Source of the DNA: Rhina ancylostomus
Taxonomy: Eukaryota
Assembly: GCA_030265395.1 (NCBI GenBank)
Contig: JARFYF010000112.1
Coordinates: 75,877,664-75,937,839, forward strand
Length of the DNA stretch: 60,176 nucleotides
Direction of reading: 5' to 3'
Below, piece after piece: positions 41,001-47,000 of this stretch (its first letter is position 1; each line of letters begins with the position of its first letter). The position numbers are program-made.

Positions 41001-44000
41001 CTGTTATTAGGTTATTTTCATGACAGTAGAAAAACATCCATCAGGAGACCTTAATTGTAGATACAGTAGTTGCAAAGGGCTTTAATACATCAGTTTTAAT
41101 TATATACTTATGAATTAATCAGACTTCATTTAATAGGAAGAGTTACCAGTGTAAAAAGTAGACCAGGACCTCCATGTCATTATCTGAGATTACTTTCTCC
41201 TTTTCCAGGATATATTCCTGTCCTTACTGACAAAAGAATCAGAAATTTCCAGTGCAGAAGGATCAGAATCAAGTTTATTATCACTGACATACGTCATGAA
41301 ATTTGTCATTTTGTGGCAGCAGTACAGTGCAAGACATAAAGACATTAAAAATTACTATAAGTTACAAAAATAAATAAATAGTACAAAAGAGGAATAACGA
41401 GGTAGTGTTCATGGGTTCATTGGCTGTTCAGAAATCTGATGGCGAAAGGGAAGAAGCTGTTCCTGAATCATTGAGTGTGGGTCTTCACGCTCCTGTACCA
41501 CCTCCCTGATGGTATTAATGTGAAGAGAACATGTCCTGAGTGGTAAGGGTCCTTAATGATGGATGCCGCTTTCTTGGGGCACCGCTTCTTGAAGATGTCT
41601 TCTGGCGGGGAGGGTTGTGCCCGTGATGGAGCTGGCTGAGTCTACAACCCTCTGCAGCCTCTTTCAATCCTGCACATTGGAGCCTCCATACCAGGCTGTG
41701 ATGCATCCAGTCAGAATGCTCTCCACCGTACTTCAATGGAAATTTGCACGAGTCTTTGGTAACATACCAAATCTCCTGAAACCCTGAATAAAGTAGAACT
41801 GCTGGTGTGTCCTCTTCGTGATTACATCAATATGTTGGGCCCAGGATAGATCCTGAGATGCTGACGCTCAGGAACTCGAAGCGGTTCACCCTGTCCTCCT
41901 CACAACTCCTGCTCCTGGCAGCAACTTGTGTCAGAACACCTCTTAGCCTGACAGCAAGGGGAATCTTAGCCTGTCCTCAAGTGACATATTTGAAAATTTT
42001 GTATAGTGGTTGTCTACTGGTTAGTGATTTTACACTCGGAAATGCAAGATCTAGGTTATAATAAGTTTTCTGCTCTCAGCAAGATGGCTTTAATTCTGCA
42101 TTTTTATTATAATATTTTTCTGATTTCCTATGTGCTTGCTGAAAGTTCAGTTTCTTCTTGGTGTATAGTGTCTCTGTCAAACTTGAACCGCAAAGACTCA
42201 GCATGCCTTCATTGGCCACACGCATGGGAGTTACCACAAACACTTGGGTGAAACTGATGAATTTTGCCCTCCCTTTAAGTGCTCAAAGACCAAATGACAT
42301 CAATTGACCCAGCACAGAACTGATGCAAGTTATTTTGGATATATATTTAAATAAGAACATTAGTTATTTTATGATGCACATATTACCTCTCAAAGTACAC
42401 AATATAGCCAGGTTCTCTACGAAAATGAATTCCTTAAAATTACTCACAGTGTCAAGAACAAATACAGAAGCCTTCCTTTGAGAAGGTACAAACAGTCCAA
42501 AGAGAGCCTTACTCCCCTGAGCATTGTGATACAAATAAATGTGTCGAACACTACCTGCAAAAATAAGGAATGAGTTATTGCACATGCAATCATCAGTGAA
42601 TTTAGCCATAAGTGAAGTTCAATTCCAAAATTACTGTATCAATGGGTAGGAAATACTTGTTGTCTGGGGACCAGTATAATCATAGCTCTGCTTTTGAATG
42701 ACCCACTTGCAAATTGTTTTTTGTGCTAGGGTAAAGAGCATGGCAATGGGGCAAGAACTAAAAGATAGGTACAAATTAGAATTGCAGTATTATCTGAAAT
42801 TGTTGAACTCTGTATGGAGTTCAGAAGATTGTAGCATGCCAGGCTGAAAGATGAGATACTGTTTCTTAAATTTACATTGCATTTCATTAGAACAATTCTG
42901 TGGCGACAATGAAGGCATCACAGTGGGATCTATTAATAAGTGACAGGAAATTCAGGGTTACATCTTCAGACTGAATAGGGAAACTTTGCAAAGCAGTTAG
43001 CTAATCTGCATTTAATCTTTCCAGTGTAAGAGAAACTCTATTGAGATCAGAAAATATATACCAAGCTGATGGTAAATCAAGTCAAATGCTACTCTCCAGG
43101 AAAGAGTACCTAGGGACTAAGAGTAAGAAAGTACGAGGTAGAAAAGGGCATTTGTTGCAGTACCTATAATTGCATGAAAAAAAGTCAGATGGAGAGGGAA
43201 TGTTGGTGATGATGGAACCAAGGTGTTACAGACCAGTTCCTTCAGAATACCTTGAAGGATGGTAAGGAGAAGGCATGTTTGGCACAGGTATTGCACTGGA
43301 GGTGCCAAGATTAACTGTTGGATCTTGAGACCAGTAAAGATAAAGGCAACCTATCATAGTTCTGTGAGAAAAGGAAGAAGATTCAGAAAGTAGAACGGAT
43401 ATAGTTGAGGTCCTGTATCATGAAGAGTCCTTGGTTAAGGAGGAGACATCGGAAATAATCAGCAAGGAAAGAGGGTTCATCAAAACTGATGCAGTCAAAA
43501 CTGAGAAAAAATGCGAAAAATAAATCTTTATAAAATGTAGGGTAATCAAGGTATCTGTGAGAATCAGCAAATTTATAGAGCATGTATACTGCTAGGCAAC
43601 ATGCTCTGCTGATATTGCTGGTGAACCAAATAGTTCACCAACCAGATGGCAATAAAGTTCTACAAATTTGCTTGGCTACTTCTGACAAAGCGTTCAGTTA
43701 CAGAAACAAATTAGAGCTCTTCAACTGAAAATGGAGAGCTTGTTTCCTGCTATTTAAATACCTTTTAAAGCAGAGAAATTTAATTTTGGATCTTCCCTAC
43801 TATCACATGATGGATCTTTAAAGATGCACTGTTATTTGTCAGTGCATTATTACTACTTAAGTACATAATTGAAGAGTAGATATCTTCAGAAGCTGTATTT
43901 GGGCAATGCATTAGCTTAAACTCTCATCAAAAGATACAGTAATTTTTTTTTACGAAACTAAATTAGTCAGTACAGTTCTGAAATCTCTGGCTGTGGAATT

Positions 44001-47000
44001 CAATTCATCATGTCTTATTAAATTTAAATTTCCCCAAGGTGTTACCCAAATAAAATTTCCTGCAACAGTAATATGGGTCACTCCATCAATTCCAATGCAG
44101 AAGCACTTCTTAAAAGCATTAAGGAAGGTAGAGACCATTCTAAATATTGGCAGAATGAAGGGTTGGTGGTGGCAGGGCAGAGTGAAAGGAAAAGATCAGA
44201 CCTGGAGAAGGCAATTATCTTGGACAATTGAATTCATTGACTGCTGTTATATTTTTATCTATTATTAAGCTTTTTTATTGAGCCACTCAACTAATTAAAA
44301 GGGGAAATATAATAGAACAGTATAAATTGCTCAAATATTACAAATGAACTATATTATAAGCGAACCATTCTTATTAACAGAACAAATGTAACTTTCCCCA
44401 GTTGTCCAGAATTAACCTAATCATTTGATTTAACATATCGCAATGTTCCACAAAGAACATATTTGCAAGTTTATAGTGTACAATTACTTGAACTCATTTT
44501 CAAAAGCTGAAATGAATAATCAAATCACTCATTTTTAAGATGATAACACATTCCAAAAAGATTAAAGCAATATTTGCCCAAAATGTGTGGGTAAAATTGG
44601 AAACACTGAGGAAAATAAATTAGGGTAAAAATCTATTCCAAGTGCTGCAATTTAAAGGCAGAAATGGCTTTCAATTTTGACTCCTGAACAACAGTTACTT
44701 TAAAGCTCAAAGTACCTATGAAGAAACCGTGATTCCATTTACATTTACCAGTTCTGGAAGTTACAGGAGGTTATCATCAAACATAATCTCAAATGTTTCC
44801 AACTCCCTGCACAAGCGACAGTGCTGTAATGGATTTGTAACATTGATTACTGAAAATGTGCTGGAGTTACAAGAGTTGCTCGGTATCGCTTTCTCTTCCT
44901 TTTCAGTAAGCAAATACAAAAATCTTAATGGCATTCTTGTAAGATATTTCAAAATCAGACAGTAGATATTACCTGGTTCCAAGTAATTAAACTGCGCTAA
45001 TGAACACATTTCCAGATACTCCAACTCAAAGGTATCCGTTTCTCGTCCAGCAAGATGGAATGATAATTGCTTATTGACCACACAAACACACCCAAGCTGG
45101 ACGAGAGCACGAAAGAGAAGAGGAACCTAGGATTAAAAAGGGAAAAAGCCTTCTAACATAGCAGTATTAACTTTTCCAAAGCCATAAGTGACTTGATGTC
45201 AATGTAATTATAATAATCAACAAGAAATTAAATAAACACTTGAAAAACTTTAAAGACTATGGGAAGTGGGATTTAAATAAATAGGGAAGCAGTGGAGGTA
45301 ATTCTGGGATTCTACATGCTGGCTAGCTCCCTATGGTGCAGAATAGTGTGATAATTGTAATATGTATTCACATATGCTGAGTTCTGCCCTATTGCAGCAG
45401 TTAATCTATTTTCTTTTAGAGTTTTAAACAGAAAGCTCCAATATTAATTTCCTTAGTGGATCATTATGATCAAGGTCAACTCGAGGCACTGTTGAACCAA
45501 CAAAGAATAATTCCTCTGAATTTGTAAATATTGAATTAGATACAAACTTGAAGTAATTTATTGCTGAGTTACACAATTGTACTGCATCATGTCCTTCAGG
45601 AGATGTACAAGAATGAAAGCCTTGCTCCCTTTATACCTCGGACAAAAAAGGCTAAGTATTTGAATAGAATGGATTTTGATTGAAATAGCAGGTGTGAATC
45701 AAATGAAAGATGAAGCAAGTGACATACCAACACACAAGTTAGGAACAGGAGGCAGTCATTCAGCACTTCGAGCCTGCTCCACCACTTAATAAGATCTTAG
45801 CTCATCTGACTGTAACTTCAACTCGGCAAATCCATCTTTCCTCTGTAATATTTGACCCTTTTGCTCATCACGTAGCTATCTAACTCCGCCTTAAAAATCC
45901 TCAGACTGTCTCCTCCATCTGGAGGATGAGTTCCGAAGATTCATTGGTAGTTGAAAGATAAACATTCACTTCATCTATCTTAAATGGTTACCCCTCATTT
46001 TTAAAAGTACTGACCTCCAGTTCTGCATTTTCCCACAAGGAAAAATTCTCTCAACATTCACCATGTCAAGACTCCTTAGGATCTAATGTGTTTCAATTTA
46101 GATTCCTCTTGTTCTAAAATGCATAAATACAAACTGAGCATGTCCCACTTTTCCTCACAGGTTAACCTGCTCTATCCATGTATTTATCGAGTAAAATGTG
46201 TGGCACATTGGTGCTGCAGATAACTTTGTGGCCTCACAGCTCCAAGGACTTGGATTTGATCCTCCCCTCAACTGATGCCNNNNNNNNNNNNNNNNNNNNN
46301 NNNNNNNNNNNNNNNNNNNNNNNNNNNNNNNNNNNNNNNNNNNNNNNNNNNNNNNNNNNNNNNNNNNNNNNNNNNNNNNATGCAACCAGTCAGAATGCTC
46401 TCCACTGTACATCTGCAGAAATTTGCAAGAGTCTTTGGTGACATACCAAATCTCCTCAAACACCTAACGAAGTAGAGCTGCTGGTGTGTCTTCTTCATGA
46501 TTGCATCAATGTGTTGGGCCCAACATAGATCCTGAGATGTTGATGCCCAGGAACTTGAAGCTGCTCACCCTTTCCATCGCTGGCCCCACAGTGAAGACTT
46601 CCCCTTCCTGAAGTCCACAATCTTGCTGACATTGAGTGTGACGTTGTTGTTGCGACACCACTCAACCAACTGATCTATCTTACTCCTGTACGCCTCCTCA
46701 TCACATCTGAGATCCTGCCAATAACAGTGGTATCATTGGTGAATTTATAGGTGGCATTTAGCTATGCCTAGCCGCACAATCATGAAGGATGCCATTTGGC
46801 TCATAGTATTTGTGCCTTCATTTCACCTATAAAAGATGCAGTTAGTGGCACTAAATTGTGCATATTCCACAGGCCATGATTCAAATCTTTACTCTTCATC
46901 CAGAAATGTCTGTCTGTTGCTCATGGAGTATTTGGCTGTGAAAACAAAAAAAAAGATTACTGGCTTAATGCTGGAATTCTGTGAGAGTTCATAAGAACAC

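What the first reader, a model, noticed from the sequence alone, without database searches (positions are those of the whole stretch)
42448..45126. Orphan pair of intact POLE exons, antisense, between MTMR8 and ASB12
Seen: two minus-strand exons (154 nt and 107 nt) with canonical AG/GT sites, matching phase and no disablements, separated by a 2.4-kb intron. Knowledge: the peptide matches the C-terminal half of the DNA polymerase epsilon catalytic subunit, a gene of about 49 exons that is not at the MTMR8-ASB12 locus in mammals. I found no neighbouring POLE exons by eye on either side. Inference: the retained intron means a DNA-level duplication or transduction, not a retrocopy. The options are a recent segmental duplicate, exons captured into a new antisense or chimeric transcript, a POLE gene with very large introns nesting MTMR8 and ASB12, or a misassembly.
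Basis: partly seen in the sequence, partly recalled or inferred. Interest (0 to 1): 0.8.

Follow-up and report, generated by a model that had tools for sequence, protein, structure and literature searches.

The report
Stranded two-exon POLE fragment in ray
Two intact exons of the replication polymerase gene POLE sit alone and backwards between two unrelated genes in a draft ray genome; this is either a young dead copy or an assembly error, and not a working gene.

Summary
On the minus strand, 45126-44973 (154 nt) and 42554-42448 (107 nt) have AG/GT borders and compatible phase. They encode the equivalents of human POLE residues 1431-1481 and 1483-1517 (E 9e-19 and 2.5e-13), that is human exons 34 and 35, with the intron at the human position. 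Five POLE proteins run against the whole window hit only these two exons. MTMR8 and ASB12a both lie on the plus strand on either side. ASB12a is 96% identical to that of Mobula hypostoma, so the window comes from a stingray-like batoid and is not human.

Two points limit the interpretation. First, the exons sit on a 14,011-bp island contig (32269-46279) bounded by N runs, so no unbroken sequence ties them to either neighbour. Second, they show no decay: none of their 86 residues is absent from 83 distinct vertebrate POLE versions.

This leaves two nearly equal readings: a young DNA-level copy (about 0.45) or a scaffold or contig misjoin of the real POLE exons (about 0.38). A POLE gene nesting the two neighbours is effectively excluded. 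Copy number, read support and the loci of related rays could not be checked. Interest is low.

The parts
44973..45126 (-). Exon A, the equivalent of human POLE exon 34 (51 codons plus 1 base)
   Evidence: AG before and GT after. P0001 matches human POLE 1431-1481, E 9e-19. Identity is 49 of 51 to P0004 and 46 of 51 to Mobula hypostoma POLE. Human exon 34 codes 51 aa, its loss shifts the frame, and its donor lies at 4444+ (PMC3526359 passages).
42555..44972 (-). Retained intron, the equivalent of POLE intron 34 (2418 nt, GT..AG)
   Evidence: It has no second copy in the window, no tandem repeat, and no Pfam hit on its two longest ORFs.
42448..42554 (-). Exon B, the equivalent of human POLE exon 35 (2 bases plus 35 codons)
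   Evidence: AG before and GTGAGT after. P0003 matches human POLE 1483-1517, E 2.5e-13. Identity is 34 of 35 to P0004 and 32 of 35 to Mobula.
41897..42447 (-). 551 nt downstream of exon B, presumed to derive from intron 35, running to the junction with a LINE fragment
   Evidence: No copy elsewhere in the window. That it derives from POLE is inference only, because the parent locus could not be seen.
45127..45719 (-). About 590 nt upstream of exon A, presumed to derive from intron 33
   Evidence: An in-frame TAG lies directly upstream of exon A. The right-hand limit of about 45720 is my own reading of where interspersed repeat begins. Only 46044-46097 has a second copy in the window.
41259..41896 (-). 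5'-truncated LINE fragment (CR1-like by my recognition), head to tail directly 3' of the POLE fragment
   Evidence: Homologous to 46380-46575 (85%, 196 nt), 57295-57410 and, inverted, 47348-47456. In alignment A1 the homology of this copy stops at about 41896-41899 while the other two copies continue. The sense strand is inferred from a weak RVT_1 match (E 0.072, below cut-off) on the minus-strand ORF of the copy at 57338-57733.
32098..32268 (.). N run (171), left border of the island contig
   Evidence: It lies 348 nt after the stop of the presumed last MTMR8 exon. It was left unfilled.
46280..46379 (.). N run (exactly 100), right border of the island contig
   Evidence: Repeat sequence lies on both sides of it. 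It was left unfilled.
10860..31749 (+). Context: MTMR8 exons
   Evidence: Pfam PF21098 and PF06602 hits. Best PDB hit is human MTMR8. Treating the ORF 31426-31746 as the last exon is an inference that could not be confirmed.
50762..53178 (+). Context: ASB12a, two coding exons
   Evidence: tblastn of Mobula hypostoma ASB12a: aa 1-287 at 96% and aa 286-329 at 89%. Ankyrin Pfam hits.

Best explanation
A dead, stranded piece of POLE. A stretch of roughly 3.5 to 4.4 kb of the POLE gene was copied as DNA into the spacer between MTMR8 and ASB12a of a stingray-like genome, in the opposite orientation. It carries the end of intron 33, exon 34, intron 34, exon 35 and the start of intron 35. It has no promoter, no start codon and no other POLE exon, and an in-frame stop sits just before its first exon, so it makes no polymerase. 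It is an unprocessed partial pseudogene, young enough not to have decayed yet.

Shown: the exons, their intron position, their isolation and their intactness.

Inferred: that the placement in the assembly is true, that a complete POLE exists elsewhere in this genome, and that the copy is inert.
For: - The exons match POLE and nothing else, and the intron sits at the human exon 34/35 boundary.
- There are no other POLE exons in the window.
- The POLE part is joined without any N to 9.6 kb of other sequence on its left, 32269-41896.
- That contig starts 171 N after the MTMR8 3' region. The gap is sized, unlike the two 100-N runs. The first poly(A) hexamer after the MTMR8 stop lies 62 nt into the contig, at 32331.
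- If the whole contig were instead the true POLE locus, intron 35 would exceed 10.2 kb. The intron distances measurable in this window are 0.66, at most 3.6, at most 4.5, 1.4 and 2.4 kb.
- The repeat copies at 41701-41896 and 46380-46575 are only 85% alike, so the segment is not a contig dropped into a single repeat.
- In the nearest named relative, POLE and ASB12a are listed on sequences of different size, 39.5 and 135.9 Mb.
Against: - No unbroken sequence links the exons to an MTMR8 or ASB12a exon, because N runs bound the contig on both sides.
- The right end of the contig is repeat.
- The exons show no sign of drift. 0 of 86 residues are private against 83 distinct POLE versions, while 36 of those 83 versions each have 1-3 private residues. 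All four splice sites are intact.
- A copy this young would be hard for a gap-rich draft to assemble separately from its parent.
- The poly(A) hexamer is weak evidence, since such hexamers occur about 2 per kb.
- Whether a second copy exists in this genome was not testable.
Confidence: 0.45

Rival explanations
1. Assembly artefact. These are the species' one and only POLE exons 34-35. They were put beside MTMR8 either by a false scaffold link at the 171-N gap (the whole 14-kb contig is foreign) or by a chimeric contig that crosses over inside the LINE copy at 41.2-41.9 kb.
For: - The window is a gap-rich draft with 7 N runs in 60 kb.
- The exons lie on an island contig with N on both sides, and its right end and the start of the next contig are repeat.
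- The exons are indistinguishable from a working POLE: 0 private residues of 86, intact splice sites, and 83 of 86 residues identical to the closest batoid-like POLE, P0004.
- The only recognisable feature between the POLE part and the rest of the contig is an interspersed repeat.
Against: - If the whole contig is foreign, POLE intron 35 must exceed 10.2 kb, larger than any intron distance measurable in the window.
- The left gap is a sized 171-N gap whose flanks have no second copy in the window.
- Copies of the LINE family in the window are only 75-85% alike, which gives an assembler little to cross over on.
- None of this is strong.
Confidence: 0.38
2. RNA-mediated chimeric insertion. While a CR1-like LINE was being reverse-transcribed at this site, the enzyme switched template to an unspliced POLE pre-mRNA. 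This left a POLE fragment fused head to tail to a 5'-truncated LINE 3' part, in a single event.
For: - The POLE fragment and the LINE fragment lie on the same strand in the order expected, foreign RNA at the 5' end and LINE tail at the 3' end, and they meet at 41896-41899 where the LINE homology stops.
- The 8-mer GTGCAGAA abuts the LINE 3' end (41252-41259) and recurs 210 nt upstream of exon A (45336-45343).
- Only 297 of 5000 shuffles gave such a match.
- LINE template-switch chimeras are a described class (PMC2104539 and bioRxiv 10.1101/2025.02.02.635956; search listing and abstract starts only).
Against: - The 8-mer test was set up after seeing the match, and the 8-mer may belong to the LINE's own tail repeat.
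- The window is dense in repeats, so chance adjacency is likely.
- LINE orientation rests on a sub-threshold RVT_1 match (E 0.072) and on my recognition of the tail.
- As far as I recall, described chimeras carry small RNAs or spliced mRNAs, not 3.4 kb of unspliced pre-mRNA.
Confidence: 0.08
3. The two exons are kept by selection as part of a new transcript, antisense or chimeric, in the MTMR8-ASB12a spacer.
For: - Splice sites and reading frame are intact.
- There is no private residue.
Against: - No start codon context, and an in-frame TAG lies directly upstream of exon A.
- No partner exon was found: 20 of the longest ORFs on the contig have no Pfam hit.
- No short POLE-like ray protein appears among the 41 hits.
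- Intactness is explained equally well by youth or by an artefact.
Confidence: 0.04
4. This is the real POLE gene, with giant introns that nest MTMR8 and ASB12a.
For: None beyond the two exons themselves.
Against: - Exons 36-49 would have to lie beyond 42 kb of sequence that holds a whole MTMR8 on the other strand, and exon 33 beyond ASB12a.
- The tables list Mobula hypostoma POLE on a 39.5-Mb sequence and its ASB12a on a 135.9-Mb sequence.
Confidence: 0.01

Closest known systems
Human POLE exons 34 and 35 (the exon 34 donor is the site of the FILS-syndrome splice mutation)
   Same: The residues are the same (1431-1481 and 1483-1517). Exon 34 has the same content of 51 aa plus one base. The intron position is the same (PMC3526359 passages).
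   Different: The human exons are two of 49 in a working gene. Here they stand alone, antisense to unrelated neighbours.
Unprocessed (duplicated) partial pseudogenes, that is gene fragments left by small segmental duplications
   Same: Homology to a parent gene, a parental intron retained, and the rest of the gene missing. An annotated partial 'POLE-like' protein of 229 aa in Aotus nancymaae (row P0043; not fetched or examined) suggests POLE fragments are annotated elsewhere too.
   Different: There are no disablements and no private substitution. The parent copy in the same genome was not seen. The placement rests on a scaffold with gaps.
LINE template-switch chimeric retrocopies (U6/L1-type chimeras)
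   Same: A foreign fragment fused head to tail to a 5'-truncated LINE 3' part on one strand.
   Different: The foreign part is unspliced and 3.4 kb long. The candidate target-site duplication is only 8 bp and not significant. The LINE is CR1-like, not L1.
Misjoined or chimeric contigs in draft assemblies
   Same: An island contig between N runs, repeats at a contig end, and foreign exons that look fully functional.
   Different: The POLE part is continuous with 9.6 kb of other sequence. The left gap is short and sized.

Membership tests
POLE gene (DNA polymerase epsilon catalytic subunit) | A full exon set encoding the exonuclease/polymerase half and the C-terminal half (about 2280 aa) | tested here: not met
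   Only the equivalents of residues 1431-1517 are present. tblastn of 5 POLE proteins finds nothing else in 60 kb.
Unprocessed partial pseudogene (DNA-level gene fragment) | Exon homology to a parent gene with a parental intron retained at the parental position | tested here: met
Unprocessed partial pseudogene (DNA-level gene fragment) | A separate complete parent gene in the same genome | not testable with these tools
   No eukaryotic genome collection is on hand. In a related ray, POLE and ASB12a are listed on different sequences.
Unprocessed partial pseudogene (DNA-level gene fragment) | Signs of neutral drift (stops, frameshifts, lost splice sites, unusual residues) | tested here: not met
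   There are no disablements, and 0 of 86 residues are private against 83 POLE versions. This is compatible only with a very young copy.
Processed retrocopy | Introns removed | tested here: not met
   A 2418-nt GT..AG intron is retained.
LINE template-switch chimera | Foreign part and 5'-truncated LINE 3' part head to tail on one strand | tested here: met
   The LINE strand rests on weak evidence.
LINE template-switch chimera | A target-site duplication flanking the whole chimera | tested here: inconclusive
   The 8-mer occurs at 41252-41259 and 45336-45343. 297 of 5000 shuffles match as well, and the test was post hoc.
Assembly misjoin | No unbroken sequence between the foreign exons and the neighbouring genes | tested here: met
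   N runs at 32098-32268 and 46280-46379 bound the contig.
Assembly misjoin | No read support across the joins, and the main locus lacks these exons | not testable with these tools
   Neither reads nor the rest of the assembly are available.

The most novel reading that the evidence does not exclude
A CR1-like LINE reverse transcriptase jumped onto an unspliced POLE pre-mRNA and pasted about 3.4 kb of it, intron included, next to its own tail. This would be an intron-bearing RNA-mediated gene fragment, showing that a retained intron does not prove a DNA-level origin.
Probability: 0.08. Interest if true: 0.45.

Novelty: new member of a known kind. Interest (0 to 1): 0.18.

Why it matters
The main value is as quality control.

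If the placement is true, it is one more young gene fragment of an essential replication gene. Such a fragment can seed false 'POLE-like' gene models, mis-map reads from the real exons 34-35, and mislead synteny calls.

If the placement is false, it marks a misjoin beside MTMR8 and predicts a hole at exons 34-35 in this assembly's POLE model.

Only the LINE template-switch reading would carry a more general lesson, and it is weakly supported.

Tried and rejected
- **Pfam on the two exon peptides:** 0 families each at E up to 1. They are too short.
- **First translation of exon B:** it began at the first base, was out of frame, and was discarded.
- **Using P0004 as a same-species yardstick:** P0004 is unnamed, 930 aa, and identical at 83 of 86 residues. 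The window differs from it at three residues, but two of the window's states are shared with Mobula hypostoma POLE. P0004 is therefore most likely another species, and its differences say nothing about paralogy.
- **Constraint test:** the single residue that looked private among 7 sequences occurs in 5 of 83 versions in the wider set. There is no sign of relaxed constraint.
- **The listing of cluster members on the batoid POLE cluster:** The other 28 members of the Mobula cluster stayed unseen.
- **Target-site duplication search:** only two 8-mers were found, about the chance level. The one abutting the LINE end is matched in 297 of 5000 shuffles.
- **One repeat split by an inserted contig:** rejected, because the two overlapping repeat parts are only 85% alike.
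- **Other checks with no result:** Rfam 0 matches and tRNA scan 0 genes. Tandem repeats 0 rows. Base composition and strand skews show no clear break at the POLE part. Pfam on 20 further ORFs of the island contig gave 0 families.
- **Confirming 31426-31746 as the last MTMR8 exon:** the search of 1.84 billion representatives gave 5 hits. Three are long proteins matched in 5 to 17 stretches (repetitive), one is a long protein matched in 4 stretches, and one is an unnamed 58-aa piece. None was informative.
- **Literature:** no paper holds MTMR8, ASB12 and POLE together. A search for unprocessed pseudogenes or gene fragments in elasmobranchs gave only barcoding papers in the 8 of 113 rows listed. 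A first search for the splice variant name found nothing.
- **ORF list:** the listing was cut in the middle, so ORFs from about 27.3 to 30.5 kb were not read by eye. The tblastn covered them.
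Full report
**What is there**

On the minus strand the window holds two short exons.
- Exon A is 45126..44973 (154 nt). It follows a pyrimidine tract and AG, and is followed by GTAATA.
- Exon B is 42554..42448 (107 nt). It follows TTTTTGCAG and is followed by GTGAGT.
- The intron between them is 2418 nt.

Exon A reads as 51 codons plus one base. Exon B supplies the other two bases of that codon and then 35 codons. Neither contains a stop. An out-of-frame first try was discarded.

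The joined two-exon model was not built or searched.
- Against PDB chain sequences, exon A matched only human POLE, residues 1431-1481 (E about 9e-19, 3 of 3 sequences returned).
- Exon B matched the same chains at 1483-1517 (E 2.5e-13).
- Pfam found nothing on such short pieces.

Passages of PMC3526359 say that human POLE exon 34 encodes 51 amino acids, that its loss shifts the frame from residue 1483, and that its donor lies at 4444+. Since 1481 x 3 + 1 = 4444, exon A is the exact equivalent of human exon 34 and exon B is the start-to-end equivalent of exon 35. The intron position is conserved.

**The surroundings**

tblastn of five POLE proteins against the whole window found these two exons only. 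The five were four named proteins (Heterodontus, Scyliorhinus, Stegostoma, Polyodon) and one unnamed (P0004). The two exons scored E 4e-27 to 2e-15, and every other hit had E >= 0.28.

The neighbours are both on the plus strand.
- MTMR8: ORFs from 10860 to 26910 carry the MTMR6-9 GRAM domain and the myotubularin phosphatase domain, and the best solved relative is human MTMR8 (E 1.2e-36).
- A further ORF, 31426-31746, follows a good acceptor and ends in a stop. It is probably the last MTMR8 exon, but I could not confirm this.
- ASB12a: two exons at 50762-51622 and 53050-53178, also plus strand.

The ASB12a ORF is 96% identical to ASB12a of Mobula hypostoma, 95% to Hemitrygon akajei and 89% to Leucoraja erinacea (1417 hits with E <= 0.001 among 4658 candidates, 120 listed). 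The window therefore comes from a stingray-like batoid. I do not take it for human sequence.

First, the window has seven N runs. The POLE exons lie on a 14,011-bp contig, 32269-46279.
- On the left it is bounded by 171 N, which begin 348 nt after the MTMR8 stop.
- On the right it is bounded by exactly 100 N, which begin 1153 nt upstream of exon A.
- No unbroken sequence links the exons to an exon of either neighbour. The N runs were left as they are.

Second, the exons look like a working POLE.
- They are identical at 49 of 51 and 34 of 35 residues to P0004, an unnamed 930-aa batoid-like POLE that is itself 846 of 930 identical to Mobula.
- They are identical at 46 of 51 and 32 of 35 residues to Mobula hypostoma POLE.
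- Two of the three differences from P0004 are states shared with Mobula.
- I read 117 POLE proteins (116 named rows plus P0004; the four unnamed rows were left out). All 117 held both exon equivalents in register and gave 83 distinct versions. Against these, the window has no private residue at all. Among those versions, 47 have 0 private residues, 24 have 1, 7 have 2 and 5 have 3.

There is therefore no trace of drift.

**Repeats at the borders**

A comparison of the window with itself and an alignment (A1) show a 5'-truncated LINE fragment at 41259-41896.
- Its relatives lie at 46380-46759 (starting right after the gap), at 57172-57733 and, inverted, at 47348-47456.
- The copies are 75-85% alike.
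- I call it CR1-like from the look of its tail. The only tool support for its strand is an RVT_1 match below threshold (E 0.072).
- The homology of the 41259-41896 copy stops at 41896-41899, 551 nt downstream of exon B, and the fragment lies on the same strand as the POLE exons.
- From about 45720 to the gap the sequence again reads as interspersed repeat. This is my own reading; only 46044-46097 has a second copy in the window.

The stretch that can be POLE-derived without passing through a repeat is thus about 41897-45719. Twenty further ORFs on the contig have no Pfam match. Rfam, the tRNA scan and the tandem-repeat scan found nothing.

**What it most likely is**

A real POLE gene nesting MTMR8 and ASB12a can be set aside.
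- The 14 downstream exons are missing from 42 kb of sequence.
- The tables list Mobula hypostoma POLE on a 39.5-Mb sequence and its ASB12a on a 135.9-Mb one.

A processed retrocopy is excluded by the intron. Two readings remain that I cannot separate.

(a) A young DNA-level copy, an unprocessed partial pseudogene. It would do nothing: no promoter, no start, an in-frame TAG just upstream, and 87 of about 2280 codons. In its favour:
- The POLE part is continuous with 9.6 kb of other sequence.
- The left gap is short and sized, unlike the two 100-N runs.
- The first poly(A) hexamer after the MTMR8 stop lies 62 nt into the contig. This is weak evidence, because such hexamers occur about 2 per kb.
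- If the whole contig were the true POLE locus, intron 35 would exceed 10.2 kb. Every intron distance measurable in this window is at most 4.5 kb.

(b) An assembly artefact, either a false link at the 171-N gap or a chimeric contig crossing over in the LINE copy. In its favour:
- The draft is gap-rich, and the exons sit on an island contig with a repeat at its end.
- The exons are perfectly functional-looking.
- A copy this young should have been hard to assemble separately from its parent.

I put (a) at 0.45 and (b) at 0.38.

**A bolder variant**

The order on the minus strand, POLE fragment then 5'-truncated LINE tail, is what a template switch of a LINE reverse transcriptase onto an unspliced POLE pre-mRNA would leave.
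- The 8-mer GTGCAGAA abuts the LINE end (41252-41259) and recurs 210 nt upstream of exon A (45336-45343).
- 297 of 5000 shuffles give such a match.
- The test was devised after seeing the match, the 8-mer may be part of the LINE tail, and repeats are dense here.
- LINE template-switch chimeras are described (PMC2104539 and bioRxiv 10.1101/2025.02.02.635956; I saw only the search listing and abstract starts).

I give this 0.08. Selection for a new transcript gets 0.04, since intactness is its only support.

**What stayed unchecked**

- The copy number of these exons in the assembly.
- Read or long-read support across the two gaps and the LINE junction.
- Sequencing depth over the POLE part.
- The same spacer and POLE introns 33-35 in related rays.
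- Expression.

The reasons are practical. The only open genome collection holds bacteria and archaea, so I made no scan of it. Supplementary files were not needed.

No paper in the library holds MTMR8, ASB12 and POLE together. A search on gene fragments in elasmobranchs gave nothing relevant in the 8 rows listed.

**Verdict**

The sequence feature is real and was correctly read. Its biological meaning is ordinary under either reading: a young dead gene fragment or a misjoin. Interest is low (0.18). If the placement is real, it is a new member of a known kind.

Noticed in passing
window 10482-10581 and 46280-46379, versus 2427-2986, 4013-4466, 14061-14065, 32098-32268 and 56266-57171: Two N runs are exactly 100 long and five have odd lengths (5 to 906). 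This suggests two scaffolding stages: sized gaps from read pairs, and unknown-size joins added later. On that reading, MTMR8 and the POLE exons share one primary scaffold (10582-46279). This is inference only.
   Followed up: partly
window 41259-41896, 46380-46759, 47348-47456 and 57172-57733: Four fragments of one LINE family, 75-85% alike, three on the minus strand and one inverted. Two of them start right after an N run (46380 and 57172), so contigs tend to break in this family.
   Followed up: partly
window 18178-18860 and 54021-54738: A second interspersed repeat family, present as three collinear pieces at 71-75% identity on the same strand.
   Followed up: no
window 4475-4894: Internally repetitive, low-complexity stretch next to an N run (self-matches at 64-71%). 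Its long ORFs are Ser/Pro/Leu-rich.
   Followed up: no
whole window: G+C is 37.8% and CpG observed/expected is 0.20, a strong CpG depletion as in heavily methylated vertebrate DNA.
   Followed up: no
window 31747-32331: There is no AATAAA or ATTAAA in the 348 nt between the presumed MTMR8 stop and the gap. The first one lies 62 nt beyond the gap.
   Followed up: partly
window 50762-53178: ASB12a appears complete in two coding exons with a 1.4-kb intron. The MTMR8-then-ASB12 order on one strand is, as far as I recall, the same as in human.
   Followed up: partly
protein P0004 (unnamed), residues 1-10: Its first ten residues do not match other POLE proteins before it joins the conserved sequence. 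It looks like a partial or intron-retaining transcript, not a full-length protein.
   Followed up: no
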